DNA from: Candidatus Saccharimonadia bacterium
Lineage (GTDB): Bacteria > Patescibacteriota > Saccharimonadia > Saccharimonadales > 2-12-FULL-41-12
Assembly: GCA_963717365.1 (NCBI GenBank)
Contig: OY970327.1
Location: 651,599 to 715,598, forward strand
Direction: 5' to 3'
Length of the DNA stretch: 64,000 bases
Shown: piece by piece, positions 5,901-44,910 of the stretch
Numbering within the stretch: position 1 is the first letter of the stretch
How the letters are laid out: each line of letters opens with the position of its first letter
Made by a program: the position numbers and the translations under genes
Notes under the pieces: generated by a model
What the model was told of the DNA's origin: nothing
Databases searched by the model: none
What the model saw: the letters and a program-made list of their open reading frames with translations, nothing else

Positions 5901-8900
5901 GCCAACCATTGTTCCCAGGTTCTGGACGTAGTCGCCGACCGTTTCGGCGCCCAGGTCAACGGCGTTGTTCTGGACGTCGTTGACGCTTAGTCCGGCCGTG
6001 AACGAGCCGGAGACGTCGCCGGCGGCCGGGCTTTCGCCGACGTTGACGTAGGCGGCGTCGAGTCCGCCGGCGGCGCCGAAGTTAGCCGTTGTCAGCACCG
6101 TTCCGCTAGCACCGTCGAAGGTGTAGGTGGCGGCTGCGCCGCTCGGAGTATTCATGACTATGGTAGCGTCGTTGGTGCCCTTTTCGAAGAACAGCTGGCC
6201 GTTCTCCAGGATACGCAGCTTTTCGCTGCCGGCCGTCGAGAAGACGATGTCGTCGGCGCCGGCCGAGGCGGCGGCTTGCAGATCCAATAGCCCGCCGGCG
6301 TTCTTAAACAGCGGGCTGGTAACGCTGGTATCAAAGACCGGTGCTTCAGAGATGGTAATGCTGCCGCAGCTGCCGCCGCTGCCAAGGGTAATGACCGTGC
6401 CGCCGCCGGTGAGGTCGCCGGAGCCGGCGGCGCAGGTAAGCTGGGTATTGCCCTGGACTGCCGTGTTGGCGGCTGCGCCGTAGGTAACGCTCAGGCCAGG
6501 AGTACTGCCCTCGCCGGAGTTGGTACCGGTAATGGAAAGGCCAACCATTGTTCCCAGGTTCTGGACGTAGTCGCCGACCGTTTCGGCGCCCAGGTCAACG
6601 GCGTTGTTCTGGACGTCGTTGACGCTTAGTCCGGCCGTGAACGAGCCGGAGACGTCGCCGGCGGCCGGGCTTTCGCCGACGTTGACGTAGGCGGCGTCGA
6701 GTCCGCCGGCGGCGCCGAAGTTAGCCGTTGTCAGCACCGTTCCGCTAGCACCGTCGAAGGTGTAGGTGGCGGCTGCGCCGCTCGGAGTATTCATGACTAT
6801 GGTAGCGTCGTTGGTGCCCTTTTCGAAGAACAGCTGGCCGTTCTCCAGGATACGCAGCTTTTCGCTGCCGGCCGTCGAGAAGACGATGTCGTCGGCGCCG
6901 GCCGAGGCGGCGGCTTGCAGATCCAATAGCCCGCCGGCGTTCTTAAACAGCGGGCTGGTAACGCTGGTATCAAAGACCGGTGCTTCAGAGATGGTAATGC
7001 TGCCGCAGCTGCCGCCGCTGCCAAGGGTAATGACCGTGCCGCCGCCGGTGAGGTCGCCGGAGCCGGCGGCGCAGGTAAGCTGGGTATTGCCCTGGACTGC
7101 CGTGTTGGCGGCTGCGCCGTAGGTAACGCTCAGGCCAGGAGTACTGCCCTCGCCGGAGTTGGTACCGGTAATGGAAAGGCCAACCATTGTTCCCAGGTTC
7201 TGGACGTAGTCGCCGACCGTTTCGGCGCCCAGGTCAACGGCGTTGTTCTGGACGTCGTTGACGCTTAGTCCGGCCGTGAACGAGCCGGAGACGTCGCCGG
7301 CGGCCGGGCTTTCGCCGACGTTGACGTAGGCGGCGTCGAGTCCGCCGGCGGCGCCGAAGTTAGCCGTTGTCAGCACCGTTCCGCTAGCACCGTCGAAGGT
7401 GTAGGTGGCGGCTGCGCCGCTCGGAGTATTCATGACTATGGTAGCGTCGTTGGTGCCCTTTTCGAAGAACAGCTGGCCGTTCTCCAGGATACGCAGCTTT
7501 TCGCTGCCGGCCGTCGAGAAGACGATGTCGTCGGCGCCGGCCGAGGCGGCGGCTTGCAGATCCAATAGCCCGCCGGCGTTCTTAAACAGCGGGCTGGTAA
7601 CGCTGGTATCAAAGACCGGTGCTTCAGAGATGGTAATGCTGCCGCAGCTGCCGCCGCTGCCAAGGGTAATGACCGTGCCGCCGCCGGTGAGGTCGCCGGA
7701 GCCGGCGGCGCAGGTAAGCTGGGTATTGCCCTGGACTGCCGTGTTGGCGGCTGCGCCGTAGGTAACGCTCAGGCCAGGAGTACTGCCCTCGCCGGAGTTG
7801 GTACCGGTAATGGAAAGGCCAACCATTGTTCCCAGGTTCTGGACGTAGTCGCCGACCGTTTCGGCGCCCAGGTCAACGGCGTTGTTCTGGACGTCGTTGA
7901 CGCTTAGTCCGGCCGTGAACGAGCCGGAGACGTCGCCGGCGGCCGGGCTTTCGCCGACGTTGACGTAGGCGGCGTCGAGTCCGCCGGCGGCGCCGAAGTT
8001 AGCCGTTGTCAGCACCGTTCCGCTAGCACCGTCGAAGGTGTAGGTGGCGGCTGCGCCGCTCGGAGTATTCATGACTATGGTAGCGTCGTTGGTGCCCTTT
8101 TCGAAGAACAGCTGGCCGTTCTCCAGGATACGCAGCTTTTCGCTGCCGGCCGTCGAGAAGACGATGTCGTCGGCGCCGGCCGAGGCGGCGGCTTGCAGCG
8201 CCAATAGCCCGCCGGCGTTCTTAAACAGCGGGCTGGTAACGCTGGTATCAAAGACCGGTGCTTCAGAGATGGTAATGCTGCCGCAGCTGCCGCCGCTGCC
8301 AAGGGTAATGACCGTGCCGCCGCCGGTGAGGTCGCCGGAGCCGGCGGCGCAGGTAAGCTGGGTATTGCCCTGGACTGCCGTGTTGGCGGCCGAGCCGTAG
8401 GTAACGCTAAGTCCCGGAGTACTGCCCTCGCCGGAGTTGGTACCGGTAATGGAAAGGCCAACCATTGTTCCCAGGTTCTGGACGTAGTCGCCGACCGTTT
8501 CGGCGCCCAGGTCAACGGCGTTGTTCTGGACGTCGTTGACGCTTAGTCCGGCCGTGAACGAGCCGGAGACGTCGCCGGCGGCCGGGCTTTCGCCGACGTT
8601 GACGTAGGCGGCGTCGAGTCCGCCGGCGGCGCCGAAGTTAGCCGTTGTCAGCACCGTTCCGCTAGCACCGTCGAAGGTGTAGGTGGCGGCTGCGCCGCTC
8701 GGAGTATTCATGACTATGGTAGCGTCGTTGGTGCCCTTTTCGAAGAACAGCTGGCCGTTCTCCAGGATACGCAGCTTTTCGCTGCCGGCCGTCGAGAAGA
8801 CGATGTCGTCGGCGCCGGCCGAGGCGGCGGCTTGCAGCGCCAATAGCCCGCCGGCGTTCTTAAACAGCGGGCTGGTAACGCTGGTATCAAAGACCGGTGC

Positions 8901-10862
8901 TTCAGAGATGGTAATGCTGCCGCAGCTGCCGCCGCTGCCAAGGGTAATGACCGTGCCGCCGCCGGTGAGGTCGCCGGAGCCGGCGGCGCAGGTAAGCTGG
9001 GTATTGCCCTGGACTGCCGTGTTGGCGGCCGAGCCGTAGGTAACGCTAAGTCCCGGAGTACTGCCCTCGCCGGAGTTGGTACCGGTAATGGAAAGGCCAA
9101 CCATTGTTCCCAGGTTCTGGACGTAGTCGCCGACCGTTTCGGCGCCCAGGTCAACGGCGTTGTTCTGGACGTCGTTGACGCTTAGTCCGGCCGTGAACGA
9201 GCCGGAGACGTCGCCGGCGGCCGGGCTTTCGCCGACGTTGACGTAGGCGGCGTCGAGTCCGCCGGCGGCGCCGAAGTTAGCCGTTGTCAGCACCGTTCCG
9301 CTAGCACCGTCGAAGGTGTAGGTGGCGGCTGCGCCGCTCGGAGTATTCATGACTATGGTAGCGTCGTTGGTGCCCTTTTCGAAGAACAGCTGGCCGTTCT
9401 CCAGGATACGCAGCTTTTCGCTGCCGGCCGTCGAGAAGACGATGTCGTCGGCGCCGGCCGAGGCGGCGGCTTGCAGCGCCAATAGCCCGCCGGCGTTCTT
9501 AAACAGCGGGCTGGTAACGCTGGTATCAAAGACCGGTGCTTCAGAGATGGTAATGCTGCCGCAGCTGCCGCCGCTGCCAAGGGTAATGACCGTGCCGCCG
9601 CCGGTGAGGTCGCCGGAGCCGGCGGCGCAGGTAAGCTGGGTATTGCCCTGGACTGCCGTGTTGGCGGCCGAGCCGTAGGTAACGCTAAGTCCCGGAGTAC
9701 TGCCCTCGCCGGAGTTGGTACCGGTAATGGAAAGGCCAACCATTGTTCCCAGGTTCTGGACGTAGTCGCCGACCGTTTCGGCGCCCAGGTCAACGGCGTT
9801 GTTCTGGACGTCGTTGACGCTTAGTCCGGCCGTGAACGAGCCGGAGACGTCGCCGGCGGCCGGGCTTTCGCCGACGTTGACGTAGGCGGCGTCAAGAGTA
9901 GATGCATAGTTACTGAGAGTCAGAACACCGTTGCCAAGCCTGATGCGGCTGACGCCGCTGCCCTCGTTGGTTACGATAAATTCACTGTCAGAGCCGGTAG
10001 GCGGCCCAAATTCTATTATGTCTGCCGCTATTGTGGGTGAGCCGTCACTTTCCCGCACCCCGATTGAGGAGCCGCTGCTTGACGTACATTGCCACTCTTT
10101 AGCAGTTGCGTTCCATTTGAGTGATTGCCCGTCGCTGCAGCCCCCCAGCAAACGCAGACCATCGGCACTAATCTCCAGGCCAGAATTGTTGCTTGTCGTA
10201 GCAGTGGTGTTTGTTGTGCTCACATCCACGCAATCCGGTGAGCCTTGGATACAAAGCGTACCATCTTGATCGGGCAAATTGATATTACGGTCTGCCGTTA
10301 AAGCTAAGAAGTCTAAAATACCGGTATTGGCACCGGTGGTTTTGTTTAGAATTTCCGATTGTTTGGCCTGAAAGGCATAAGGCACAGCCGTCAGCTTTAT
10401 CCGCGGCGTCATTTCGCCGTCCCAAACCGGGGTACCGCTGCCCCCAATATTCATCGTCAGCCAGTGGTCCTGATCCCAATCTATTGTCGGTGGAAAACCG
10501 CTTACGTCGCCCAAATTAGCTGATAGGTAACCATTGACTACCCTAACCTTGCTTCCCCCTGTCCTAGTCTCCGTCCATTCGCTTGTTCCGCCGGTACTAG
10601 CGGAGTAGAGGTTAAATTCAATATTGTAGAAGCCGTCCGGTACGACGTTGCCGGCATTGGAAAGCAGGCGCGCCTGGAAGTTGAGATTGCTGGAAGTAGC
10701 CGCATACACGGGGGCAGGCGCGCCCATGCGCGTATATGAAATAACAGCAACAGAGGTCAGAATTACAAAATATACAAAAACACGCAGCAACCGCGTGACA
10801 GGGGAAATTCTAGAACTGAATGCCGATTTGCTAAATCGACACGGATATATCCGTTTTAACAT
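2952..10862 (-). CDS. Giant surface fibre protein G1 (2636 aa): signal/anchor, conserved N-domain, 213-aa tandem repeats, S74-like chaperone domain, C-terminal module
   Basis: Uninterrupted 7.9-kb ORF starting at ATG 10862. The N-terminal hydrophobic segment VFVYFVILTSVAVISY is followed by APAPVYA|ATSS. The ectodomain is rich in T/G/A/N/S/V. It has 6.6 copies of a 213-aa unit. SDARVKKD...GVIAQELEQIFPELV sits near the C-terminus. Confidence 0.85.
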   Translation of the reverse strand: MLKRIYPCRFSKSAFSSRISPVTRLLRVFVYFVILTSVAVISYTRMGAPAPVYAATSSNLNFQARLLSNAGNVVPDGFYNIEFNLYSASTGGTSEWTETRTGGSKVRVVNGYLSANLGDVSGFPPTIDWDQDHWLTMNIGGSGTPVWDGEMTPRIKLTAVPYAFQAKQSEILNKTTGANTGILDFLALTADRNINLPDQDGTLCIQGSPDCVDVSTTNTTATTSNNSGLEISADGLRLLGGCSDGQSLKWNATAKEWQCTSSSGSSIGVRESDGSPTIAADIIEFGPPTGSDSEFIVTNEGSGVSRIRLGNGVLTLSNYASTLDAAYVNVGESPAAGDVSGSFTAGLSVNDVQNNAVDLGAETVGDYVQNLGTMVGLSITGTNSGEGSTPGLSVTYGSAANTAVQGNTQLTCAAGSGDLTGGGTVITLGSGGSCGSITISEAPVFDTSVTSPLFKNAGGLLALQAAASAGADDIVFSTAGSEKLRILENGQLFFEKGTNDATIVMNTPSGAAATYTFDGASGTVLTTANFGAAGGLDAAYVNVGESPAAGDVSGSFTAGLSVNDVQNNAVDLGAETVGDYVQNLGTMVGLSITGTNSGEGSTPGLSVTYGSAANTAVQGNTQLTCAAGSGDLTGGGTVITLGSGGSCGSITISEAPVFDTSVTSPLFKNAGGLLALQAAASAGADDIVFSTAGSEKLRILENGQLFFEKGTNDATIVMNTPSGAAATYTFDGASGTVLTTANFGAAGGLDAAYVNVGESPAAGDVSGSFTAGLSVNDVQNNAVDLGAETVGDYVQNLGTMVGLSITGTNSGEGSTPGLSVTYGSAANTAVQGNTQLTCAAGSGDLTGGGTVITLGSGGSCGSITISEAPVFDTSVTSPLFKNAGGLLALQAAASAGADDIVFSTAGSEKLRILENGQLFFEKGTNDATIVMNTPSGAAATYTFDGASGTVLTTANFGAAGGLDAAYVNVGESPAAGDVSGSFTAGLSVNDVQNNAVDLGAETVGDYVQNLGTMVGLSITGTNSGEGSTPGLSVTYGAAANTAVQGNTQLTCAAGSGDLTGGGTVITLGSGGSCGSITISEAPVFDTSVTSPLFKNAGGLLDLQAAASAGADDIVFSTAGSEKLRILENGQLFFEKGTNDATIVMNTPSGAAATYTFDGASGTVLTTANFGAAGGLDAAYVNVGESPAAGDVSGSFTAGLSVNDVQNNAVDLGAETVGDYVQNLGTMVGLSITGTNSGEGSTPGLSVTYGAAANTAVQGNTQLTCAAGSGDLTGGGTVITLGSGGSCGSITISEAPVFDTSVTSPLFKNAGGLLDLQAAASAGADDIVFSTAGSEKLRILENGQLFFEKGTNDATIVMNTPSGAAATYTFDGASGTVLTTANFGAAGGLDAAYVNVGESPAAGDVSGSFTAGLSVNDVQNNAVDLGAETVGDYVQNLGTMVGLSITGTNSGEGSTPGLSVTYGAAANTAVQGNTQLTCAAGSGDLTGGGTVITLGSGGSCGSITISEAPVFDTSVTSPLFKNAGGLLDLQAAASAGADDIVFSTAGSEKLRILENGQLFFEKGTNDATIVMNTPSGAAATYTFDGASGTVLTTANFGAAGGLDAAYVNVGESPAAGDVSGSFTAGLSVNDVQNNAVDLGAETVGDYVQNLGTMVGLSITGTNSGEGSTPGLSVTYGAAANTAVQGNTQLTCAAGSGDLTGGGTVITLGSGGSCGSITISEAPVFDTSVTTPLVTNAGALTLSTTGANNLTISSGSGLVNLGASTIATTSGLTFNMANASDTAFTINNSGAGLANLNVEGQGTFGTGLVVTSGSASITGNSTINGTFGTYTTGYNLMGTDATLNAYGYFRSVSTSDTVSRFEIGAYDIFGSGGGRDLVLNPLGGNVGVGGDLTPDGLFSVGSTSQFQVNASGLVSSNGVTAGSGLIQGTGGLTITGAFSIDGAIFDPTGNLVLNDITDIGSAATGLQVAIDGSLLDIDGSLVLNDQVLLGSSTTGLQITTAGAITDLDGTAVQFGESVAINGNLLVQQTATGAAIMIDRTDGVIASLKSGLAKSGFFFDNAGSFSISTDTRGNISTGTGSGTDIITALANGSVGIGTSAPDSRLHITGGGLCIETSDSGCASSSGTAIIGSGLTILAGGANITGGIDNNSGNITETGSITGVGANITGTTGLTLASGGSGDLTLDSASNKIVISDTDSTLQRNAAGTTTIDLNNAATTTLTLDNLGAGIANLNVASGVYQQAGLSGVTVAACTAGQYIGNGVRISGGITTAGTCRNDATGISDARVKKDVTSVGSVLDKLNSVNVVSFNFKVEEMPELNLDHGLQYGVIAQELEQIFPELVKQREDGYKEVNFQGLSFYNLKAVGEIAKHLNSQGNASLNAVSANTLTVNGDITAGTIRADRIEGLEYNGRFESLEARVNNLEQQPASQGNTQQIDLENLSIGNLTANGNAIINGETNVQKLTVNLDLIVQGAVEINGPATFKEMARFQKDVQFDGQINVLGYANVQGLTVNLNLIVQGALEVKGPATFKEMVRFEKDAQFDGNVAVKGQITLNSDTAGTAVVKAGETSVKVKFSKPKTTKPVISLTLGDGKFAQYSYKNVTEEEFEIILASPALEDMALSWIALSADPPPPAPVASH
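3745..4040 (-). other. Peptidase S74-like intramolecular chaperone / autoproteolysis domain of G1
   Basis: Sequence GISDARVKKDVTSVGSVLDKLNSVNVVSFNFKVEE...LQYGVIAQELEQIFPELVKQREDGYKEVNFQGLSFYNLKAVGEIAKHL. The Ser-Asp codons are at complement 4020-4025, with Lys at +5. This pattern matches the endosialidase / tail-spike C-terminal chaperone family. Confidence 0.65.
5679..9892 (-). repeat. 639-bp (213-aa) in-frame tandem repeat, about 6.6 copies, in two subfamilies of identical copies
   Basis: Antisense shadow ORFs recur at 6127, 6766, 7405, 8044, 8683 and 9322, a period of 639. The three copies spanning 8044-9892 are identical to each other. The copies spanning 5679-8043 are also identical to each other. 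The two sets differ at about 7 nt per unit, for example gcagcgcc vs gcagatcc (LLALQ vs LLDLQ) and YGSAAN vs YGAAAN. Confidence 0.9.
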
Positions 10863-11917: not shown

Positions 11918-14900
11918 TTACTGTTGGATAAAGGTATTTGGATTTGTAACGCTGAGGGCGGTCCATGAGAACTGGACGTTCTCTGTGGCCGGCTGGCTGA
12001 GCATAATATCAAATCCGGTTGACGTTACGTTGCGGTAGGCATACTGGGCAAAGCCGCCCTCACCGAGAGTAAGGGAGATAACCGGCTGCTGGCTGAATGG
12101 CTTTGTGAAGCTGACATGGACACTCTGCTGCCCGGCATTGATTGCCGCGTAGCCGCCGGTGTTGCTATTGAACCTGGCCTCGCCGTTAAAGCTGGTAAGG
12201 CCGTTGAGCTGCACGTCGCCATTAAAAGTTGCCAGCTGCTCAAACAGGGCCGTACCCTGGAAAGTTGAGCTGCCCTTCACTACCAATGCGCCTTCGGTAA
12301 ACATATCTAGGGTTATATTCAGGTTGCCAACTGTCAGGTTTTCCAGGTCAATTTGCTGGCTTGGACCGGTGTTGCTTGCCTGACTTTGCTCAAGACTATT
12401 TACCCGGGTTTCCAGAGCTGATAACTTAACGTCCAAGCCGTCTATCTGCTCAAATTGTTCCATACTGATATCGCCGACTTTTTGGTTAAGCTCAATTAGG
12501 CCTTTTAAGGTGTATATATTAAGGGCGTCGTATTTTACCCGGAAATAGCCGTCTTGGCCCTGAGCAACTAGTTCAGGAAAGATCTCAGCTATCTCCTGGG
12601 CAATAACACCAGTGCCGCGGTCGCAGCTTAAATCAAGAACCGTATAGTCGGGATCGTCACATTTAAACTCAAACGTAACAGTATTAATGCTCTGGAGTTT
12701 ATCTAAAATTCCATCTTCAATGCTGGCGACATTTTCTTTCAGGCGGGCGTCAGAAAGTCCGGCATCATCAGCTTCGCAGGTACCAGCTGTAATGATACCG
12801 CCTGTTGAGGTGGCGTTACCCATAAATTGGTTAGCGGCACAATCCAGAGTGATGCCATTTACGCCATCATTCTGATATACGCCCGTCCCTGTTACATTAA
12901 AGTTGCCACTGGTAGATATGGTACTGCTGGCAGCTATGGTGGTAGCGCCGGAAACAGCGCCGGCGCTGGTTATACCACCGGCATTATTGTTTATGCCGCC
13001 GGTTATATTTGCCCCCCCGCCGGTAACTGTCAGTCCGGTAATGTTCTGCAAGGCACCGGCGTTAGTTAATCGTGTCACTCCGGCAGTTTGAAGGCTACCT
13101 TCGCTGATATTAAAGTTAGCAACTCCCAAGCCGCTGTTGGTTAGTATAAAAGTAGTAGTTAACAGATCATTCAGATCGGTTGTGAAAGAACCGGCCCCAG
13201 TCCTTTGGACTGAAGTATCAGAACTATCAATAACGAGAGTGTTACTGGCACTGTTTAACGTAAGGTTTGCGCTGCCTCCTGAGCTAACCGTCAGTGCGCC
13301 AGTTCCGGTAATACTCGCGATATTCTGCAAAGCACCGGTACTGGTTAGCCGTACGGTACCATTAGTGGCGACCGAGTTAAAGTTTATATTGCCGTCTCCG
13401 TCCAACAGGTCTGCCATTTCTGTTGTGGCGGAAAGTCCATAGAATAAGAGGGACTGGTTTCTTACTTGTAAAAATCCGTTGGCACCCGTAGAAACTAGTT
13501 CTGGAAATATTAACGCAAGCTGCTGGGCTATTACTCCCGTGCGATCATCGCAGGTTAAATCAAGAGCTGCGTACAACACGTCCAGGCAAAGATAGTTGTA
13601 ATCAACAACGTTTACATTCTTTATCTGGCTGAGCATGTTTGTTTTGGACACCACATTTGTTTTAAGGGTGCCGTCTGAAATACCGGTGTCATCAGGTTCG
13701 CAGGTTCCTGCCGTGATTATACCGCCGCTGACGGTTTGGTTGCCCAGGAATTCATTAGCTGCACAGTCTGGACTGATACCGTTTACTCCATCATTTTGAT
13801 AAACGCCAGTACCCGTTACATTGAAGTTTCCACTGGTAGAGATGGTATTGTTGGCAGCAATAGTAGTAGCGCCGGCAATTGCGCCCGTATTAGTGATACC
13901 GCCGGTGTTATTGTTAATACCGCCGCTGATACTGGCACCGCCGCTAGCGACTGTCAGCCCCGTAATACCGGTAAGGGTCCCTGTTATAGTACTATTCCCT
14001 GTTACAGTTATGCCGCCAGCTGTGACTGCCAAGCTGCCACCGAATGAGCCTCCGCCTTCGACGCTTAAACTAGCGGTTTGTGTTCCGTCGGAATTTGTAA
14101 CAGATAAGGTAGTGTTGGCACCGGCGTTTAGCAAATCGATAATTGTAGTACCGGCAGCACTGCGCCGCAAAGTGCCTGAACCGATATTAACCACGCCGTT
14201 GCCACTCGTTAAAGTAAGTGCCCCTGTACCTTGGGTTTGTACGAGTAGGTTTTGGTTATTGGCAGCTTGGATAGTTGTTGCGCCGGCTCCGGCGAAAGTC
14301 AGCGCGGTACCGGTAAATGTATTGGTGTTTATAGTACCGCCAACCGTTATATTATTTGTTACGTTAATCGCTACCCCGGCTGCTGAAAAAGTATTGGCTA
14401 AAGTAAAGTTATTTGCCTGGTTTTCATATGCTATGTTGGTGAGCGTTCCGGCAGTATTAATATCCACGCCGTTAAGCTGGAAGGCACCGGCAGTAGTATT
14501 AATGTTGCCTGACGCGGTAACACTAGTAAAACTTGGCGTAGCCGACAATGAAACGTTGCCACAAGTGCCGCCAGTCCCCAGGGTTATGGTATTGCCACCG
14601 CCGCTTAGGTTGCCAGTTCCAGATGCACAAGTGATCTGGGTATTGCCTTCTACCGCCGTGCCTGCACCGGAACCGTACTGAACATTTAGAGTAGCGGTAC
14701 CGCCGGCTCCTAGGGTAAGTGTTCCGCCGCCGCCAAGGCCTGTGCCAGCAGCTACAGTAACTGCTGTATTGCCCTGGACAGCGGTGTTGGCGGCTGAGCC
14801 GTAGAGCACGCTGATGGTTGGAGTACTGCCTTCGCCGGTGTTGCCGGTGGTAGATAGGCCGGTTAGGGTGCCGAGGGTGGCTATGTAGTTGCCTACAGTG

Positions 14901-17900
14901 TCAGTACCTAGGTCAACACTGTTGTTCTGTACACTGTTTACGAGGAAGCCAGCCGTGAATGAACCGGAGATGTCACCGGCAGCCGGTGCCTGCCCTTCGT
15001 TTACATAGGTAGCATCAAGCGTAGTGGTGTAGTTGGCGGTAGTCAGGACGGTGCCGGTGGCGCCTGAGAAGGTGTAGGTGGCAGCGGCGCCGGGGGCGGC
15101 TACCGCAAAGGTAACGTCGTTAGTGCCCTTTTCGAATTTCAGGTCGCCGTTTTCAAGGATACGCACTGCTTCGCCGCCGGCCGTATTAAAGATGATGTCG
15201 TCGGCACCGGCGGTGGCGGTTGTACCAACAGTAAGTATTCCGGCGCTTTGTACTATTGGTGTAGTAACGCTGGTGCCAAAGCTAACGGCAGCATTGGTAG
15301 TTATGTTACCGCAAGAACCAGCTGTACCTAAGGCAAAGCTGTTGCCGCCACCGGTGAGGTTACCAGTGCCGGATGCACAGGTAATCTGGGTATTGCCCTG
15401 GACAGCGGTGTTGGCGGCAGAGCCGTACAGTACTGAGATAGTTGGCGTGCTGCCTTCTCCGGTGTTGCCGGTGGTGCTGAGGCCGGTTAGGGTGCCAAGG
15501 ACGGATATGTAGTTGCCGGTTGTTTGAGTCCCTAAGGTAACGGCGTCAGCGTCGATCTCGCCATTAGAAATTGAGGTACCGAGGGTTGCTACCAGCGATC
15601 CGCTGGAAATACCCAGCCCTGTACCTGTTAAATCAGTGAAGGCGTCGCCGTTAAGCGTAAATGTGTCGCCGGTCTCAATGGTTAGGCCACCGTTGGCGGT
15701 AATCAGGCCGGCCGCGGCCACCGTGCCGGTGAAGCTGACAGCGTTGCCAATAGTCTGGCCGTTAATAGTGCCACTGGTCACGTTGCCATTGGTTGCGACC
15801 TGGAAGGCATCAGCCGTACCGGCCGTCAGCGTACCGGATACATCTAGGTTGCCGGTAACGTTAGTGTTATCTTGCAGCTCTATGGTTGAACCGCTGTTAA
15901 GTGTTATCAGGTCAGCACTGGTAATGGCCAGGTCATTGCCCACTCCTGTTGCTGAGATTGTTAAGTTCCCAGCATTAGTAACGATTGGCGTCGTAACACT
16001 GGTGCCAAAACTAACCGCCGCATTAGTTGTAAGGTTACCGCAAGATCCGGCTGTACCAAGGGCAAAGCTGTTACCCCCACCGCTGAGGTTACCAGTGCCG
16101 GATGCGCAGGTGATCTGGGTGTTGCCTTGAACGGCAGTGTTGGCGGTTGAACCGTAAAGGACGCTGATGGTTGGAGTTGAGCCCTCTCCAGTGTTGCCGG
16201 TAGTGCTTAGGCCGGTTAATGAGCCTAAGGTAGCTATGTAGTTGCCTACGGTATCTGTCCCTAAGTCTACGCTGTTGTTTTGGACGCTATTAACGAGGAA
16301 ACCAGCGGTGAATGAACCGCTGATGTCACCGGCTGATGGATTTTCGCCAGTGTTAACGTACGTTCCGTCCAGAGTAGCTGTGTAATTAGCGGTGGTGAGA
16401 ATCGTACCAGTAGCGCCTGAGAACGTATAGTTAGCGGGAGCGCCAGACGGGGTAGCAATAATAAAGGTGGCGTCGTTAGTACCACGCTCAAACCGTAAAT
16501 CACCGTTTTCCAGTATGCGGAAAGTTTCGCTTCCGGCGTTGCTAAAGACAATGTCATCAACACCAGCCGTAGCGGTCGATGAGATAGCAAGCGATCCAGC
16601 GTTCGTTAGTGTTGGCGTGGTCACAGAAGTTGCAAAGCTCACAGCTGCGTTAGTTGTAATATTGCCGCATGATCCGGCTGAACCAAGGGCGAAACTGTTA
16701 CCGCCACCTGAAAGGTTGCCCGTCCCACTGGCGCAGGTGATCTGGGTATTGCCTTGGACGGCGGTATTGGCGCCTGAGCCATAAAGAACGGCTATGGTTG
16801 GAGTGCTGCCTTCGCCGGTGTTGCCGGTGCTAGATAAGCCAGTCAGCGTGCCTAGGGTAGCAATGTAGTTTCCAACCGTATCTGTGCCCAGATCAACTGA
16901 GTTATTCTGGACGCTGTTAACCAAGAAGCCGGCAGTAAATGAACCGGAAATATCACCGGCTGTTGGGTTTTCACCAGTATTAACATAGGTACCGTCAAGC
17001 GTAGCCGTATAATTAGCGGTGGTGAGAATCGTACCGGTAGCGCCGCTAAAGGTATACGTAGCAGCCGCGCCGGGAGTTACTACTGCAAAAGTCACGTCGT
17101 TGGTACCTTTTTCAAACCTAAGGTCGCCGTTTTCCAAAATACGCACTACTTCACTGCCAGCTGTGTTAAAGATTATGTCGTCGGCGCCTCCGGTAGCGGT
17201 GGTACCGATACTCATAGTGCCTGCATTCTGAATAGTTGGCGTAGTTACAGAGGTTGAGAAACTGACTGCCGCGTTAGTAGTAAGGTTGCTGCAGCTACCG
17301 CCCGTACCAAGCGTGAGCGTATTGCCGCCCCCACTCAGATTGCCAGTTCCAGATGCGCAGGTAATTTGGGTATTACCTTGGACGGCGGTATTGGCTGCTG
17401 AACCGTATAGCACACTGATGGTTGGAGTACTGCCTTCTCCAGTGTTGCCGGTGGTAGATAAGCCAGTTAAGCTGCCCAAGGTTGCTATGTAGTTGCCGAC
17501 TGTATCTGTTCCAAGATCAACGCTGTTATTCTGGACGCTGTTAACTAAGAAGCCAGCAGTAAATGAGCCGCTAATGTCACCGGTGGCAGGGCTTTCACCA
17601 GTGTTTACGTAGCCGGTGTCCAGGTTGGTGGCGTAGTTTCCGGTGGTTAATATGGTGCCGCTGACACCGCTAAAGGTGTAGGTAGCAGCCGCGCCGGGAG
17701 CCGCAAAGGCTAAGGTTATATCATTGGTGCCCTTCTCGACTCTGACATCGCCGTTTTCTAAGAACCGCATCACTTCGTTGCCAGCCGTGCTCAAGACAAT
17801 GTCGTCAGCACCGGCCGTAGCGGTTGTAGTCAGATTTAGAGCCCCGGCGGTGGTTATTGTTGGCGTAGTAACTGAGGTACCAAAGCTAACAGCCGCATTA

Positions 17901-20900
17901 GTAGTAATGTTACCGCAACTGCCAGCTGAACCAAGGGCGAAGCTGTTGCCACCGCCACTTAAGTTGCCAGTTCCAGATGCACAGGTGATCTGGGTATTGC
18001 CCTGGACGGCGGTGCCCGCGCCAGAACCGTAGAGAACTGCCAAAGTAGGCGTAGAGCCTTCTCCGGTGTTGCCGATGGTTGAGAGACCGGTGAGAGTGCC
18101 TAGAGTTGCTATGTAGTTGCCGGTAGTCTGTGTACCTAGAGTAACTGCGTCGGCGTCAATCTCACCATTAGAAATTGAGGTACCAAGGGTTGCTACCAGC
18201 GATCCGCTTGAAATACCCAGTCCGGTGCCTGTTAAATCAGTAAATGTGTCTCCGTTAAAGGTAAAGGTATCACCCGCTTCAATGATTAGACCGCCGTTAA
18301 CACTTAACAGCGCGGAGAACATACCGGCACCGGTTACACTTAGATCGCCACCCAACAAACTCAGACCGCGAGTACTGTCGATTTCAATATTAGAACCATT
18401 CTGAGCAAGCCAAGAGCTGGATAAGCTATTACTACCGGTATATAGAGGAATTCGATTGGTTGTACCGGAGCCAGTGATAGTTCCGGCCGCACCGCCATCG
18501 TCGTTGTCGCAGGTTAGAACACCGCTGGCATTGACGGTTAGAGCACCGCCGTTATCATAAGTAGAACAGTTGAAACCAGTTAAAATGATCTGGTCAGCAC
18601 TGGTAAGTGTTAAGTCGTTGCCGGCTCCTGTTGTTGAAATGACTAATCCTCCAGCATTGGTTATCAGCGGTGTAGTAACACTGGTAGCAAACGATGGAGC
18701 CGCGCTAATGCTCAGGTTGCCACAACTGCCGGCTGAACCGAGAGCAAAGCTATTGCCACCACCTGTGAGATTACCGGTACCGCTAGCACAAGTGATCTGG
18801 GTGTTGCCTTGGACAGCGGTGTTGGCGGCTGAACCGTAGAGGACGCTGATGGTTGGAGTACTGCCTTCGCCGGTGTTGCCAGTGGTGCTTAGGCCAGTCA
18901 GTGTGCCGAGGACAGATACATAATTGCCAGTAGTTTGCGCACCTAACGTGACGGCATCAGCATCAATTTCGGCATTAGAGATAGATGTGCCGAGAGTAGC
19001 CTGCAGTGATCCGCCGGAAATGGCTAAGCCGGTGCCTGTAAGATCAGTGAACGCATCACCGTTCATAGTGAATGTATCACCTGCTTCAACGGTTAGGCCA
19101 CCGTTAGCACTAATCAGGCCAGCTGCAGCCAGTGTGCCAGTGAAGCTGGCGCTGGCACCGATGGTTTGTCCGTTAACGGTGCCACTGGTTACATCGCCAT
19201 TTGCCACCACTTGGAAAGCGTTTGCCGTACCCGCTATTAAGGTTCCGGACACATCCAGACTACCAGTAATGTTAGTGTTATCTTGCAGTTCTATGGTTGA
19301 ACCGCTGTTAAGTGTTATCAGGTCAGCACTGTTAATGGTCAGGTCATTGCCTGCCCCAGTAGCTGAAAGTGTTAGGTTGCCGGCATTGGTAACGGTTGGC
19401 GTAGTGACACTGGTTGCAAAACTAACCGCGGCATTAGTAGTAATATTTCCACATGATCCAGCTGAACCAAGAGCAAAGCTATTGCCACCACCTGTGAGAT
19501 TACCGGTACCACTGGCGCAGGTGATCTGGGTGTTGCCTTGGACAGCGGTGTTGGCGGCTGAACCGTAGAGGACGCTGATGGTTGGGGTGGAACCTTCGCC
19601 AGTATTGCCAGTGGTTGAGAGACCTGTCAGGGTGCCTAGGACGGATATGTAGTTGCCTACTGTATCTGTACCTAGGTCAACTGAATTGTTTTGGACACTG
19701 TTAACTAAGAAGCCAGCAGTAAATGAGCCGCTAATGTCACCGGTGGCAGGGCTTTCACCAGTGTTTACGTAGCCGGTGTCCAGGTTGGTGGCGTAGTTTC
19801 CGGTGGTTAATATGGTGCCGCTGACACCGCTAAAGGTGTAGGTAGCAGCCGCGCCGGGAGCCGCAAAGGCTAAGGTTATATCATTGGTGCCCTTCTCGAC
19901 TCTGACATCGCCGTTTTCTAAGAACCGCATCACTTCGTTGCCAGCCGCGCTAAAGACAATGTCGTCAGCCCCTGCAGTAGCGGTAGTAGCGATGGCAAGC
20001 GAACCGGCATTTTGCAATGTTGCGGTGTTCACACTAGTAAACGATGGAGTGGCGGTCATACTGATGGCGTTACAAGTTCCACCGGTGCCAAGCGTTATAG
20101 TGTTTCCGCCGCCAGAAAGATTACCGCTGGTGCTGCTACAAGTAACTTGGGTATTGCCTTGGACGGCAGTGTTGGCACCTGAGCCGTATATAACGCTGAG
20201 CGTAGGAGTGGAACTTTCACCGGTGTTGCCGGTAGTATTAAGACCAGTCAGGGCACCGAGAGTTGCTACGAAATTACCAGTAGTTTGAGTGCCTAGTGTT
20301 ACTGCATCGGCATCAATTTCTCCATTAGATATAGAGGTACCAAGTATTGCCTGTAGGGCACCGCCAGAAATCGATAATCCGCTGCCGGTCAGATCACTAA
20401 AGGCTTCGCCATTGATGGTGAAGCTATCGCCTGTCTCTATTGTCAGGCCGCCGTTGGCGGTTAACAACGCGGAGAACATACCGGCACCAGTAACATCCAA
20501 ATTGCCTCCAAGTAAGCTCAGGCCACGGGTACTGTCGATCTCAATACTTGATCCGTTTTGCGCCAACCATGAAGTTGATAGGCTGTTTGCACCGGTGTAC
20601 AGCGGTATTCGATTGGTAATACCCGAACCCGTGATAGTTCCGGCCGCACCGCCATCGTCGTTGTCGCAGGTTAGAACACCGCTGGCATTGACGGTTAGAG
20701 CACCGCCGTTATCATAAGTAGAACAGTTGAAACCAGTTAAAATGATCTGGTCAGCACTGGTAAGAGTTAAGTCATTACCGGCTCCTGTTGTTGAAATGAC
20801 TAATCCTCCAGCATTGGTTATCAGCGGTGTGGTAACACTGGTAGCAAATGAAGCGGCAGCGTTGGTGGTAATATTTCCGCACGAACCGCCCGTACCCAGA

Positions 20901-23900: not shown

Positions 23901-24808
23901 TTTCCCTCTTCGTTAATCTTAAATAGCTCGTTTACGTCCTTGATCACCCCAACCCCAGATTCTTGCTTAAGCGAAGGGTCGACCGTGCCTGCTATCTGAT
24001 ACGCAACGTCTGCGAACGGCCCAAGACCCCGGGCAAGAATATTATTTTCTTCTTGGACCTTATAGTGTTTACTATCGTTTTCACCTGTATCGATGCCGAA
24101 TGTATGGGTCATGGTACTAGGAAAAGTCAAAAAGAGGACAGTTAGTCCTCCAATTAATCCGCCAGTTGCTCCAACGGCATATATAAGCCACAACGGCATA
24201 TACTTCCGTTTTTTAGGTTTCCTTACTTTTGGCAGACCAAGGTTCGGTATCTTCAGGTGAACACCCTTTTTCAAAGGTGCAGTATCGATATAGCCGTCCG
24301 AGTCGCTGAGTAGCGGCGTCACTGGCTGGCTTAATGCTACTCGTATTGCCTGTAAAACATGGCTGCCATGCAGAGAATTGTCCTGTGCATTTGCTTTCTC
24401 CACCTCAGTAATTTCTATTGCTTGTGATTTTGGCTCTATAGTTGTTTTTTGGCTTATTCTCGCCTGATATTCTTTGACAGTCTGACGGTCATATTCACGT
24501 CTTCCATTCTCATCACGAGACGGTACCAACATGGCCTGATCCTCTAGTCGACGAACCGATGAGGGAGAGACCTTAAGCAGCTTTGCTACCTCTGTTGTTG
24601 AAAGCGGTTGCGCAGATTTATAGGCTTCGAGTTCATCGACTGGAAAGTATCGATTCTTGCCATCTAGCCGTTCGGCAGCCAGCTTGCCGCCTTTTTCCAA
24701 GCGCCGCACCGTATCAATAGATACACCTAGAATATTAGCAGCATCACCTACTGTAACGTAGTCTCTGTACACTTCTTCTGGCTGCGATGTTGGCGAATTA
24801 CTATTCAT
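11918..24808 (-). CDS. Giant protein G2 (about 4296 aa): 2x cytoplasmic HTH, TM helix, collagen-like tract, about 13 degenerate fibre modules, two S74-like domains, C-terminal module
   Basis: The ORF in the track runs to 24922. A promoter-like TTGCAT-N17-TAAACT lies inside that extension, so I favour ATG 24808 ([12 protein letters not shown]...). Sub-domains are listed separately. Confidence 0.8.
12470..12770 (-). other. S74-like chaperone/autoproteolysis domain no. 2 of G2 (canonical SDARLK)
   Basis: Sequence [98 protein letters not shown]. The Ser-Asp codons are at complement 12749-12754. Confidence 0.65.
13400..13700 (-). other. S74-like chaperone domain no. 1 of G2 (variant SDGTLK, Arg replaced by Thr)
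   Basis: Sequence [97 protein letters not shown]. The Ser-Asp codons are at complement 13673-13678. Confidence 0.6.
23435..23614 (-). repeat. Collagen-like triple-helix tract, 20 uninterrupted G-X-Y triplets
   Basis: Translation is [60 protein letters not shown]. It begins about 170 residues after the TM helix, that is, on the predicted outside. Confidence 0.85.
24125..24199 (-). other. Single transmembrane helix of G2 (N-in / C-out by the positive-inside rule)
   Basis: [10 protein letters not shown] precedes [26 protein letters not shown]. Confidence 0.7.
24458..24760 (-). other. Two tandem MerR/excisionase-type helix-turn-helix domains at the cytoplasmic N-terminus of G2
   Basis: HTH1 is [50 protein letters not shown]2 is [47 protein letters not shown]. 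Both follow the (T/S)xxE/DAAxxLGVSxxTVxRxxxxGxLxxxR....R.Y pattern of HTH_17/MerR_1-type domains. Confidence 0.65.
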
Positions 24809-24878
24809 TTTGTTAGATTTTTGAACTACTTTTGTGTTCGTTATCTGTTTCTTATGTCTGTTAAGAAAGCTTATGCAT

Positions 24879-24931
24879 AGTTTACCTGGTAGCATTACAC
24901 TATGCAAGCCTATTGTGCACATTTTGTACTC
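24879..24931 (-). promoter_or_regulatory. Promoter-like block upstream of G2 (-10 TAAACT, -35 TTGCAT, inverted GAGTACAAAAT element)
   Basis: The minus strand reads GAGTACAAAATgtgcacaataggcTTGCAT-N17-TAAACT, with -10 at complement 24879-24884 and -35 at complement 24902-24907. The leader ...CGAACACAAAAGTAGTTCAAAAATCTAACAAA-ATG has no Shine-Dalgarno. Confidence 0.4.
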
Positions 24932-25347: not shown

Positions 25348-25356
25348 ATACATAAA

Positions 25357-25469: not shown

Positions 25470-25520
25470 GGTGCTCTGGTGTGTAGCCCTGCCGCACTAC
25501 GTGCAGCATTACTATTATTA

Positions 25521-26102: not shown

Positions 26103-26173
<71 letters not shown>

Positions 26174-26187
26174 AAGATGCTTCACCT

Positions 26188-26222
<35 letters not shown>

Positions 26223-28603: not shown

Positions 28604-28634
<31 letters not shown>

Positions 28635-44798: not shown

Positions 44799-44910
44799 TT
44801 TGGTTTGGTTTTGGTTTGGTTTGGGATTTGGTGTTAGCTGTTTTTTAGCTGTTAGTTTTTTGAATTTGTTTTGGTTATTTTTTGTTCTGTTTTTTAATAA
44901 CCTGAGCACT

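What the first reader, a model, noticed from the sequence alone, without database searches (positions are those of the whole stretch)
12470..13700. Tail-spike-type autoproteolytic chaperone (S74-like) domains in three of four giants, and two in tandem in G2
G1 (3745-4040), G2 (13400-13700 and 12470-12770) and G4 (46070-46360) each contain the pattern (T/D)G(I/L)SD(A/G/Q)(R/T)(L/V)K(K/E/T)(D/N)(V/L)...N(V/T)V.(F/Y)....(20-30 aa)...G(V)IAQE(L/I/F)...FP(E/D)LV....(D/N)G(Y/F)..V.Y..L. This includes the Ser...Lys(+5) dyad spacing known from the endosialidase / phage tail-spike intramolecular chaperone that cleaves itself off after trimerisation.

That predicts these cellular giants are trimeric fibres matured by C-terminal self-cleavage. 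G2 carries two complete tip cassettes of about 330 aa each (stalk, then [15 protein letters not shown](E/Q)F.GN....[13 protein letters not shown](I/L)SD, then chaperone) in tandem. The first has SDGTLK (Arg lost) and the second has canonical SDARLK. Either the first site is inactive and was read through after a cassette duplication, or cleavage at the first site releases a second fibre-tip protein.
Basis: partly seen in the sequence, partly recalled or inferred. Interest (0 to 1): 0.75.

Follow-up and report, generated by a model that had tools for sequence, protein, structure and literature searches.

The report
Phage-type self-cleaving domains in Saccharibacterial giants
Three of four giant surface-fibre genes in this small bacterial genome (probably a Saccharibacterium) carry the self-cutting trimerisation domain known from phage tail spikes, but placed internally ahead of a lectin-like tip, and twice in one protein; this arrangement has not been described and could be tested as part of how these epibionts build or shed attachment fibres.

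Summary
Pfam Peptidase_S74 (PF13884) matches G1, G2 (two separate copies) and G4 well above its cut-off, and does not match G3. Every copy has the Ser-Lys(+5) dyad at the stated coordinates.

- These are cellular genes. They lie beside 23S/5S rRNA and tRNAs on a 1.19-Mb contig, and the closest relatives are all in Saccharibacteria MAGs.
- They belong to a large family of N-terminally anchored or secreted giants.
- Unlike phage S74, where the Ser lies about 100 aa from the stop codon, the domain here is never terminal. A further 248-586 aa follow it: helices, a short beta-helix and an H-type-lectin-like domain.
- Cleavage would therefore detach a lectin-bearing trimeric cap rather than a bare chaperone.

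G2's tandem arrangement is not a recent duplication. Synonymous sites are saturated. The upstream copy belongs to an old "upstream-type" lineage shared with other multi-S74 giants. Ser and Lys are invariant in 95 of 95 family copies, whereas Arg(+3) is preferentially lost in upstream copies.

Trimerisation and cleavage remain inferred.

Verdict: a new variant of a known kind, of moderate interest.

The parts
11918..24922 (-). G2, a 4334-aa giant. Order of elements: cytoplasmic double HTH, one TM helix, collagen stretch, long shaft, two Cys-knob+S74 cassettes, helices, beta-helix, lectin-like C-terminal domain.
   Evidence: ORF. Pfam domains. Identical to database protein P0016, which comes from a 1,191,543-bp contig.
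13340..13678 (-). G2 upstream S74/ICA domain (aa 3749-3861), motif SDGTLK. The Ser3749 codon is 13676-13678.
   Evidence: PF13884 37.2 bits, E 3.5e-9 on its own. Family HMM 116 bits. Motif. Its nearest relatives are upstream copies of other giants.
13679..13804 (-). Cys-bracketed pre-cleavage module 1 (aa 3707-3748: [42 protein letters not shown]).
   Evidence: Translation. The family consensus C...q........gGi.t...C.....g.SD.RlK holds in at least 80% of 95 copies.
12428..12754 (-). G2 downstream S74/ICA domain (aa 4057-4165), motif SDARLK. The Ser4057 codon is 12752-12754.
   Evidence: PF13884 52.5 bits, E 6e-14. Family HMM 133.5 bits. A PDB profile search of an alignment of G2 with three relatives hits MyRF ICA 7dc3 at E 1.8e-7.
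12755..12880 (-). Cys-bracketed pre-cleavage module 2 (aa 4015-4056).
   Evidence: In the alignment of the two cassettes, the 95 aa before each Ser are 78% identical, yet only 34 of 74 identical residues share a codon.
12377..12532 (-). Two predicted helices after the downstream ICA core (aa 4131-4182), a possible coiled coil.
   Evidence: AF2 helices at residues 92-113 and 124-143 of the 295-aa fragment, at low pLDDT.
12170..12340 (-). Short beta-helix or solenoid (aa 4195-4251).
   Evidence: AF2 gives regular 3-residue strands every 6 residues, pLDDT 64-74. Foldseek matches to tailspike beta-helices.
11936..12163 (-). C-terminal H-type-lectin-like domain of G2 (aa 4254-4329).
   Evidence: AF2 pLDDT 85-95. 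Foldseek matches to Helix pomatia and H. aspersa agglutinins, SLL-2 and discoidin II, with TM-score about 0.56-0.58 on the target, and to R-pyocin fibre feet. Pfam H_lectin scores 19.3 bits, below its cut-off of 24. Relatives reach the cut-off.
24473..24760 (-). Two MerR/HTH_17-type helix-turn-helix domains at the G2 N-terminus (aa 55-150).
   Evidence: Pfam MerR E 3e-15, HTH_17 E 2e-13, MerR_1 E 2e-11. The same N-terminus occurs in 17 other giants of 2100-5100 aa.
24122..24196 (-). The single transmembrane helix of G2 (aa ~243-267), preceded by KVRKPKKRK. This predicts the N-terminus inside the cell.
   Evidence: Sequence. It is the only hydrophobic segment in the protein.
23438..23614 (-). 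Collagen G-X-Y triple-helix stretch in G2 (aa 437-495).
   Evidence: PF01391 31.3 bits, cut-off 27.2.
2952..10862 (-). G1, a 2636-aa giant with a signal-peptide-like N-terminus, 7 x 213-aa shaft repeats, one S74 domain and a lectin-like C-terminal domain.
   Evidence: Identical to P0037.
3708..4025 (-). G1 S74/ICA domain (aa 2280-2385), motif SDARVK. The Ser codon is 4023-4025, and 357 aa run from the Ser to the end.
   Evidence: PF13884 56.6 bits. Motif. Family HMM 136 bits.
2967..3368 (-). G1 C-terminal lectin-like domain (aa 2499-2632).
   Evidence: Family C-terminal-domain HMM 206 bits.
45602..62089 (-). G4, a 5495-aa giant with an N-terminal TM helix (aa 58-80), 1188-nt shaft repeats and one S74 domain.
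46049..46348 (-). G4 S74/ICA domain (aa 5248-5347), motif SDQRLK. The Ser codon is 46346-46348, and 248 aa run from the Ser to the end.
   Evidence: PF13884 46.9 bits. Motif. The AF2 model matches MyRF ICA 7dc3 (E 4e-5, TM-score 0.56) and endoNF chaperone 3gw6.
34326..44939 (-). G3, a 3537-aa giant of the same family (it shares the G1-type N-terminus) with no S74 domain and a different tip.
   Evidence: No Pfam hit. No family-HMM hit. N-terminal homology to G1 at E 3.5e-60.

Best explanation
**What it is.** G1, G2 and G4 are cell-surface fibres of a small-genome bacterium, most likely a Saccharibacterium (Patescibacteria). They belong to a lineage-specific family of giants.

**Proposed mechanism.**
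1. Each protein is exported with its N-terminus held at the cell. G2 and G4 have one N-terminal TM helix, and G2 also has a cytoplasmic double HTH. G1 has a signal-peptide-like N-terminus followed by a conserved N-terminal domain.
2. Near the far end sits a conserved module: a Cys-bracketed knob, then an S74 / intramolecular-chaperone-autocleavage (ICA) domain.
3. By analogy with phage tail spikes and MyRF, three ICA domains associate, set the register of the trimeric shaft, and then cut the chain just before the invariant Ser using the Ser-Lys(+5) dyad.
4. The ICA domain is internal here, so the cut does not remove a bare chaperone. It separates the shaft from a 250-360-aa trimeric cap made of the ICA domain, helices, a short beta-helix and an H-type-lectin-like domain.

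**G2.** It has two such modules of ancient, separately conserved types, so it can yield three pieces:
- shaft, aa 1-3748;
- middle piece, 308 aa (3749-4056);
- lectin cap, 278 aa (4057-4334).

The upstream site has lost Arg(+3) and probably cuts more slowly or less precisely, but it is not dead.

**Shown:** domain identity, motif invariance, architecture, phyletic distribution and the age of the duplication.
**Inferred:** trimerisation, cleavage, and the fate and role of the fragments.
For: **Domain identity**
- All four copies exceed the Pfam cut-off.
- They match phage tail-fibre PHROG families.
- They match solved ICA structures by sequence and by fold.

**Catalytic residues**
- Ser and Lys(+5) are present in 95 of 95 S74 copies from cluster representatives at 50% identity, including 13 upstream copies.
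- The positions equivalent to MyRF Y615 and Y617 (mapped through the profile alignment of G2 with three relatives and the seed alignment) are F/F in G1, Y/Y in the G2 upstream copy, F/F in the G2 downstream copy and Y/M in G4.
- In MyRF, S587A and K592A abolish cleavage. R590A only reduces cleavage and makes it less precise (PMC8326128).

**Internal position**

| Set | Ser-to-stop distance | n |
|---|---|---|
| Saccharibacterial loci | median 406 aa | 20 |
| Family proteins | median 402 aa | 82 |
| Viral copies | median 101 aa | 88 |
| Other cellular copies | median 118 aa | 43 |

**Lectin cap**
- AF2 gives pLDDT 85-95 for the C-terminal domain, and Foldseek matches H-type lectins.

**Trimer hints**
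- A collagen repeat in G2 and helices after the ICA domain.

**Cellular context**
- rRNA and tRNA genes in the window, a 1.19-Mb contig, and the top 18 genomic loci all in Saccharibacteria/Saccharimonadia or Patescibacteria-group MAGs.

**Old, maintained tandem**
- Saturated synonymous sites and an upstream-type paralogue lineage.
- Other single ORFs carry 2-3 copies: L013, L002, P0017, P0029.
Against: - There is no experimental or proteomic evidence of cleavage.
- AF2 monomer models of the ICA part are poor, with pLDDT 35-65. A trimer could not be modelled.
- Cleavage would detach the lectin-like domain. The same domain ends 70 other retrieved proteins in which no S74 domain was detected, some of them fragments. 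It is therefore odd that a functional tip should be cut off.
- Invariant Ser and Lys could in principle be structural.
- G2's upstream copy lacks Arg(+3) and the long helices that follow the downstream copy.
- The organism is inferred from relatives only.
Confidence: 0.5

Rival explanations
1. Only the last S74 domain of G2 cuts. The upstream copy (SDGTLK) is catalytically silent and is kept as a structural trimerisation or registration node inside the fibre.
For: - Arg(+3) is lost in 8 of 13 upstream copies but in only 4 of 82 last copies (Fisher p = 4e-6).
- The upstream copy has the lowest Pfam score of the four copies (37 bits).
- It lacks the long helices that follow the downstream copy.
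Against: - Ser and Lys(+5) are kept in all 13 upstream copies, and G2's upstream copy keeps both aromatic positions.
- In MyRF the equivalent R590A mutant still cleaves, though partially and with aberrant sites.
- Several upstream copies keep Arg (P0019, P0028, P0044, P0045), so the upstream position does not itself require loss.
- The Fisher test is not corrected for shared ancestry.
Confidence: 0.2
2. None of the S74 domains cuts. They serve only as trimerisation clamps, and the lectin-like domain stays covalently attached at the fibre tip as the adhesin.
For: - The lectin-like C-terminal domain also ends 70 retrieved proteins in which no S74 domain was detected. Several of these carry Kelch or Gly-rich domains instead.
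- G3 has a tip with no S74. A functional tip is therefore expected to remain attached.
- No direct evidence of cleavage exists.
Against: - The dyad is invariant in 95 of 95 copies despite 50% or more overall divergence.
- Every experimentally studied member of this domain family self-cleaves once trimeric: endoNF, T5 pb1 and MyRF. MyRF is from PMC8326128; endoNF and T5 are from my own knowledge.
Confidence: 0.15
3. The giants are phage or prophage tail-fibre genes rather than cellular surface proteins.
For: - PHROG tail-fibre families and Pfam S74 match them.
- NCBI names relatives 'tail fiber domain-containing protein'.
Against: - No phage structural or replication genes are in the window.
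- Neighbours are rRNA, tRNA, a ROK kinase, a DivIC-like gene and small membrane proteins.
- The proteins are 2600-5500 aa, with an N-terminal TM helix or signal peptide.
- The 80 best viral loci match only the S74 part at 46% identity or less, and never the C-terminal domain.
- Full-length relatives are confined to Saccharibacteria MAGs.
Confidence: 0.02

Closest known systems
C-terminal intramolecular chaperone domain (MEROPS S74, PF13884) of phage endosialidase K1F, T5 L-shaped tail fibre pb1 and GA-1 neck appendage
   Same: - Same Pfam domain, with the SD.R.K Ser-Lys(+5) dyad, the GVIAQE..FPELV core and aromatic residues at the cutting site.
- It is preceded by a fibre shaft.
- PHROG and PDB matches.
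   Different: - In phages the domain is terminal, with the Ser 84-120 aa from the stop codon, and the released piece is only a chaperone.
- Here 248-586 aa follow it, including a beta-helix and a lectin-like domain.
- The carrier is a 2600-5500-aa cellular protein with an N-terminal TM helix or signal peptide.
- One protein can hold two or three copies.
MyRF (myelin regulatory factor) ICA domain, PDB 7dc3
   Same: - Best solved-structure match by sequence (E 1.8e-7) and among the best by fold.
- The ICA domain is internal and is followed by further domains.
- It sits in a single-pass membrane protein that also has a DNA-binding domain. G2 has two HTH domains and one TM helix.
   Different: - In MyRF the order is DNA-binding domain, ICA, then TM, all on one side of the membrane, so cutting frees the transcription factor.
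- In G2 the order is HTH, TM, about 3500 aa of shaft, then ICA.
- The cut is therefore extracellular and about 3500 residues from the membrane, and cannot by itself free the HTH domains.
Cellular 'tail fiber domain-containing proteins' of Bacteroidota and others (PGAP name for PF13884 carriers)
   Same: S74 domains in non-phage bacterial proteins are already annotated in databases.
   Different: - Those copies are essentially terminal. The median Ser-to-stop distance is 118 aa across 43 non-Saccharibacterial cellular copies.
- Those listed are about 140-850 aa long.
- They match only the S74 part of the query.
H-type lectins (Helix pomatia agglutinin, discoidin II C-terminal domain, SLL-2) and R-pyocin tail-fibre foot domains
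   Same: - The fold of the last ~80 aa of G2 matches them, with TM-score about 0.56-0.58 and probability 1.0.
- Some relatives pass the Pfam H_lectin cut-off.
- H-lectin modules are used as binding tips in eCIS tail fibres (PMC12923769).
   Different: - The window's own domains fall below the Pfam cut-off (16-19 bits against 24).
- Sugar-binding residues were not examined.
- Placement directly after a self-cleaving ICA domain was not found in any paper returned by the literature searches.

Membership tests
Peptidase_S74 / ICA (intramolecular chaperone autocleavage) domain, PF13884 | Profile match above the curated gathering score (22 bits). | tested here: met
   G1 56.6 bits, G2 upstream copy 37.2, G2 downstream copy 52.5, G4 46.9. 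G3 has none.
Peptidase_S74 / ICA (intramolecular chaperone autocleavage) domain, PF13884 | Catalytic Ser at the first residue of the domain, with Lys five residues later. | tested here: met
   SDARVK, SDGTLK, SDARLK and SDQRLK. The dyad is invariant in 95 of 95 family copies.
Peptidase_S74 / ICA (intramolecular chaperone autocleavage) domain, PF13884 | Conserved Arg(+3), which positions the scissile strand (MyRF R590). | tested here: inconclusive
   Present in G1, the G2 downstream copy and G4, and absent from the G2 upstream copy (Thr). In MyRF, R590A is only a partial defect, so the residue does not strictly define the family.
Peptidase_S74 / ICA (intramolecular chaperone autocleavage) domain, PF13884 | Aromatic pair lining the cutting hole (MyRF Y615/Y617). 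| tested here: met
   Mapped through the PDB profile alignment of G2 with three relatives and the seed alignment: F/F in G1, Y/Y in the G2 upstream copy, F/F in the G2 downstream copy, Y/M in G4 (only one aromatic).
Peptidase_S74 / ICA (intramolecular chaperone autocleavage) domain, PF13884 | C-terminal helix that forms a trimeric coiled coil. | tested here: inconclusive
   AF2 monomer models predict long helices after the core in the G2 downstream copy and in G4, but at low pLDDT. The G2 upstream copy has only a short helix before the next shaft segment. No trimer model was possible.
Peptidase_S74 / ICA (intramolecular chaperone autocleavage) domain, PF13884 | Trimerisation-dependent self-cleavage before the Ser. 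| not testable with these tools
   This needs recombinant expression with S-to-A controls, or proteomics.
Phage-type C-terminal chaperone (tail spike / tail fibre maturation) | The domain lies at the extreme C-terminus, so that only the chaperone is released. | tested here: not met
   The Ser-to-stop distance is 357, 586, 278 and 248 aa in the window, against 84-120 aa in 88 viral copies. PHROG profiles end with the S74 match, whereas the window proteins continue for 150-270 aa.
Phage-type C-terminal chaperone (tail spike / tail fibre maturation) | The gene is encoded in a phage or prophage structural module. | tested here: not met
   The context is rRNA, tRNA, a ROK kinase and membrane proteins. 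Full-length relatives are found only in Saccharibacteria genomes.
MyRF-type membrane-tethered transcription factor | [quoted passage not shown] | tested here: not met
   The order in G2 is HTH (aa 55-150), TM (aa ~243-267), then ICA (aa 3749 and 4057). The ICA domains are on the other side of the membrane.
H-type lectin, PF09458 | Profile match above the gathering score (24 bits). | tested here: not met
   G2 scores 19.3 bits and G4 16.0. G1 has no hit. Relatives P0085 (25.2 bits) and P0018, P0027 and P0174 (precomputed) do match.
H-type lectin, PF09458 | H-type lectin beta-sandwich fold. | tested here: met
   The confident part of the G2 AF2 model matches 2ccv, 4q56, 3wmp and 2vme (probability 1.0; TM-score 0.56-0.58 on the target for 2ccv, 4q56 and 3wmp; 0.24 for 2vme, a two-domain chain). 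For G4 the match is only suggestive.
H-type lectin, PF09458 | GalNAc-binding residues at the protomer interface. | not tested
   No residue-level comparison or trimer model was made.
Collagen triple helix repeat, PF01391 (G2 only) | A G-X-Y repeat that matches the profile above its cut-off. | tested here: met
   G2 aa 437-495, 31.3 bits against a cut-off of 27.2.

The most novel reading that the evidence does not exclude
The internal ICA modules are programmed break-points in a membrane-tethered HTH-TM-fibre protein.

- After trimerisation, the covalent link between shaft and lectin cap is replaced by a non-covalent one, or by none. In G2 this would happen twice, in sequence.
- The epibiont could then shed or exchange lectin-bearing tips on contact with its host bacterium.
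- Loss of Arg(+3) would tune upstream sites to fire later.
- The cytoplasmic double HTH would couple the state of the fibre to gene expression.

This would be a bacterial counterpart of self-cleaving adhesion receptors of the MyRF, GAIN or SEA type.
Probability: 0.1. Interest if true: 0.85.

Novelty: new variant of a known kind. Interest (0 to 1): 0.55.

Why it matters
Saccharibacteria and other Patescibacteria live attached to host bacteria. Apart from type IV pili, the molecules that find and hold the host are largely unknown (PMC11623550, PMC9894109; abstracts listed).

This family offers concrete candidates. The four giants in the window occupy about 48 kb of a 1.19-Mb contig. Three of them end in a lectin-like domain behind a self-cleaving module that so far has been studied experimentally only in phage fibres and in the eukaryotic factor MyRF.

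If the cut occurs, it shows three things:
- a phage fibre-maturation device has been adopted by cells and moved to an internal position;
- serial cleavage sites can be built into one fibre;
- the mature tip is not what the gene sequence suggests.

The predictions are cheap to test, using fragment sizes and S-to-A controls. If the cut does not occur, the family becomes a natural set of non-cleaving ICA domains with an intact dyad.

Tried and rejected
**Searches that gave nothing**
- The look-up of encoding contigs for G2 returned nothing on record. The source was identified only as a 1,191,543-bp NCBI/ENA contig.
A tighter alignment, A3, worked.
- NCBIfam gave no hits for any tip fragment.
- Rfam found no intron family in the over-long 23S.
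- Four literature searches found no paper linking S74/ICA to Saccharibacteria or Patescibacteria giants.

**Weak or uninformative results**
- AF2 monomers gave poor ICA regions, so catalytic geometry could not be assessed.
- hhalign of the G4 C-terminal domain against the G1/G2-type profile was weak (probability 12.6%). The G4 lectin assignment therefore stays tentative.

**Ideas rejected or corrected**
- I first took the ~410-aa tails that follow S74 in P0002 and P0003 to be G3-like. The alignment showed that only the YY..CY..W..C neck motif is shared.
- MyRF-like release of the G2 HTH domains by ICA cleavage is rejected on topology.
- A recent cassette duplication in G2 is rejected. Synonymous sites are saturated, in contrast to the shaft repeats at 96-100% nucleotide identity.
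- A prophage origin is rejected on gene context and phyletic distribution.
Full report
**1. What is in the window**

The window holds four giant ORFs on the minus strand:
- G1, 2952-10862, 2636 aa
- G2, 11918-24922, 4334 aa
- G3, 34326-44939, 3537 aa
- G4, 45602-62089, 5495 aa

The setting is cellular.
- A bacterial 23S rRNA (25822-29359) and 5S rRNA (25355-25469) lie between G3 and G2. tRNA-Ile and tRNA-Ala lie at 63289-63660.
- The small neighbouring genes are a ROK kinase, a DivIC-like protein and unannotated membrane or secreted proteins. There are no phage genes.
- G1 and G2 are identical to database proteins P0037 and P0016. Both come from a single 1,191,543-bp NCBI/ENA contig.

**2. Checking the observation**

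- Translating the C-terminal parts shows the reported motifs.
- Pfam PF13884 (Peptidase_S74, "chaperone of endosialidase", cut-off 22 bits) matches G1 at 56.6 bits, G4 at 46.9 bits and G2 twice. It does not match G3.
- Scanned separately, G2's upstream copy scores 37.2 bits (E 3.5e-9) and its downstream copy 52.5 bits (E 6e-14).
- The dyad motifs and Ser codons are SDARVK (4023-4025), SDGTLK (13676-13678), SDARLK (12752-12754) and SDQRLK (46346-46348).
- A family-specific HMM run over all six frames finds exactly these four copies.
- The two G2 cassettes are 308 aa apart and align over about 310 aa.

**3. What the domains resemble**

- A profile built from G2 and three relatives hits MyRF ICA (7dc3, E 1.8e-7), a phage tail fibre (8jov), the S16 long-tail-fibre tip (6f45) and the GA-1 neck appendage (3gud).
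- PHROGs gives many tail-fibre families. In every one the match sits at the very end of the phage profile.
- AF2 monomer models are poor across the ICA part, as expected for a domain that folds as a trimer. Even so, Foldseek places them on MyRF ICA and on the endoNF chaperone 3gw6.
- In MyRF, S587 and K592 are indispensable. R590A, the Arg(+3) equivalent, gives partial cleavage with aberrant sites. Y615 and Y617 line the cutting hole. Cleavage needs the trimer (PMC8326128).
- The Y615/Y617-equivalent positions are F/F in G1, Y/Y in the G2 upstream copy, F/F in the G2 downstream copy and Y/M in G4.

**4.

- After the Ser come 357 aa in G1, 586 and 278 aa in G2, and 248 aa in G4.
- I measured the Ser-to-stop distance in fetched loci:

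| Set | n | Median (aa) | Range (aa) |
|---|---|---|---|
| Viral S74 copies | 88 | 101 | 84-120 |
| Copies from other bacteria (mostly Bacteroidota) | 43 | 118 | 86-330 |
| Copies in Saccharibacteria loci | 20 | 406 | 189-1542 |

- Among proteins retrieved by an exhaustive HMMER search, the last S74 copy lies a median 402 aa from the C-terminus.
- In G2 the stretch after the downstream copy is predicted as two helices, a short regular beta-helix, and a confidently modelled C-terminal domain (pLDDT 85-95).
- That C-terminal domain superposes on H-type lectins (Helix pomatia and H. aspersa agglutinins, SLL-2, discoidin II) and on R-pyocin fibre feet.
- Pfam H_lectin is sub-threshold for the window's own proteins (16-19 bits against 24), but relatives reach it.
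- For G4 the lectin assignment is only suggestive.
- The same C-terminal domain also ends 70 retrieved proteins in which no S74 was detected, some of them fragments. Several of these carry Kelch or Gly-rich domains instead. It is therefore an independent module.

**5. The family and its host lineage**

- The exhaustive search gave 9343 hits at E < 1e-3 and 71 at E < 1e-30, many of them 1000-5100 aa long.
- In the genome collection, the top 18 loci are all Saccharibacteria, Saccharimonadia, Saccharimonadales or "Patescibacteria group" MAGs. Weaker matches covering only the S74 part come mainly from Bacteroidota, plus Paceibacterota and Kaiserbacteria.
- NCBI names a close relative [quoted passage not shown].
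- In IMG/VR, the 80 best loci match only query residues ~1-161, at 46% identity or less. None matches the C-terminal domain.
- The family has two N-terminal types:
  - G1/G3-type: a signal-peptide-like segment (…VYA|ATSSNLNFQARLL) followed by a conserved ~130-aa domain, found in more than 60 proteins.
  - G2-type: two MerR/HTH_17 helix-turn-helix domains, a basic stretch and one TM helix, found in 17 other giants and in loci L001, L002 and L004.
- Each giant has a single hydrophobic segment, at its N-terminus.
- G2 also has a collagen G-X-Y stretch, an independent hint that the fibre is trimeric.

**6. The tandem arrangement**

- It is recurrent. Twelve of 91 S74-bearing family proteins have two or three copies. 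Examples are P0017 (SDSTLK, SDALLK, SDIRLK) and P0029, which is L013 ORF 4679-11263 in a Saccharimonadales MAG (SDSGLK, SDSNLK, SDIRLK). L002 ORF 449-10897 has two copies and a G2-type N-terminus.
- It is old.
  - The 95 aa before each Ser in G2 are 78% identical in protein, yet only 34 of 74 identical residues use the same codon. Third-position identity is 0.51.
  - The ICA parts are 38% identical.
  - By contrast, shaft repeats in G1 (7 x 639 nt), G4 (4 x 1188 nt) and G3 (2.8 x 408 nt) are 96-100% identical in DNA.
- G2's upstream copy is 69% and 62% identical to the upstream copies of P0017 and P0044, but only 35% to its own partner. An "upstream-type" ICA paralogue has therefore been maintained across giants.
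- Ser and Lys(+5) are present in all 95 copies examined.
- Arg(+3) is kept in only 5 of 13 upstream copies, against 78 of 82 last copies (Fisher p = 4e-6).
  - This test is not corrected for shared ancestry.
  - Arg is lost in some members and kept in others within both similarity groups of upstream copies.
- Together with the partial phenotype of MyRF R590A, this argues that upstream sites are attenuated rather than dead. It also argues against a relic of a recent duplication.

**7. Mechanism**

Best-supported reading:
- These are N-terminally anchored or secreted trimeric surface fibres.
- Their distal Cys-knob plus ICA module nucleates and registers the trimer, then cuts before the Ser.
- Because the module is internal, the cut separates the shaft from an ICA-helix-beta-helix-lectin cap.
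- G2 can yield three pieces: aa 1-3748, aa 3749-4056 and aa 4057-4334.

Shown: domain identity, motif invariance, architecture, distribution and age. Inferred: trimerisation, cleavage and the fate of the fragments.

The main difficulty is that cleavage would detach a domain that looks like the adhesin. There are three ways out:
- the cap works before the cut, or after release;
- the cap stays bound non-covalently;
- the cut does not occur at all.

These cannot be separated by computation. A MyRF-like release of G2's HTH domains is excluded by topology.

**8. Comparison with what is known, and novelty**

- The domain is a member of PF13884/S74, and cellular carriers of it are already annotated in databases.
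- Four things are not described in any paper I could find:
  - the systematic internal placement;
  - the lectin-like module downstream;
  - serial copies with position-specific loss of Arg(+3);
  - the HTH-TM-giant-fibre carrier in Saccharibacteria.
- I rate this a new variant of a known kind, of moderate interest. It gives concrete, cheaply testable candidates for the attachment fibres of epibiotic Patescibacteria.

Noticed in passing
window 24122-24760 (G2 aa 55-267); also L001, L002, L004: G2 begins with two MerR/HTH_17-type DNA-binding domains, a basic stretch and a single TM helix, ahead of about 4000 extracellular residues. The same N-terminus is present in 17 other giants of 2100-5100 aa, so the fusion is conserved and is not a gene-calling artefact. 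Why a giant surface fibre should have a cytoplasmic DNA-binding head is unexplained.
   Followed up: partly
window 25355-29359 and 63289-63660: The rRNA operon is split. tRNA-Ala and tRNA-Ile, which normally sit in the 16S-23S spacer, lie about 34 kb upstream of the 23S gene. G4, G3 and three genes for small or medium membrane or secreted proteins lie between them. 5S is followed directly by G2 and G1.
   Followed up: no
window 25822-29359: The 23S rRNA match spans 3538 nt for a 2925-nt model, so it contains about 600 nt of insertion. No Rfam intron family matched at E <= 0.01.
   Followed up: partly
window 5656-9789 (G1), 51653-55559 (G4), 39376-40511 (G3): The shafts contain near-identical tandem repeats: 7 x 639 nt at 97-100% identity in G1, 4 x 1188 nt at 96-100% in G4, and 2.8 x 408 nt at 99% in G3. 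These account for the local G+C rise to 0.64 in G1 and contrast with the ancient tip cassettes. Copy numbers could be affected by assembly.
   Followed up: partly
window 13679-13804, 12755-12880, and e.g. G2 aa ~565-590, G1 aa ~212-259: A Cys-bracketed motif (roughly C-x3-Q-x-LKW-x5-7-W-x-C, or C...GGI.T..C) recurs along the shafts of family members and always sits immediately before the S74 Ser. It may be a disulfide-closed node or knob.
   Followed up: partly
window 31421-34108 (-): An 895-aa secreted or anchored protein with no Pfam or NCBIfam match. It contains repeated units of about 60 aa of the type W(R)(I/M/L)EKR..SDGALC.AANCG..F.T.G, suggesting a beta-propeller-like repeat protein. 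It lies between G3 and the 23S gene.
   Followed up: no
window 34326-35078 (G3 C-terminus); P0009, P0012: G3 lacks S74 and ends in a different ~200-aa tip after a YY..CY..W..C neck. That neck motif also precedes yet another tip type in relatives P0002 and P0003, where it lies downstream of an S74 domain. Tips therefore appear to be swapped as modules.
   Followed up: partly
proteins P0115, P0125, P0082, P0085: The same lectin-like C-terminal domain ends proteins that carry Kelch beta-propellers or a Gly-rich domain and have no S74. It is therefore a general C-terminal module in this lineage.
   Followed up: partly
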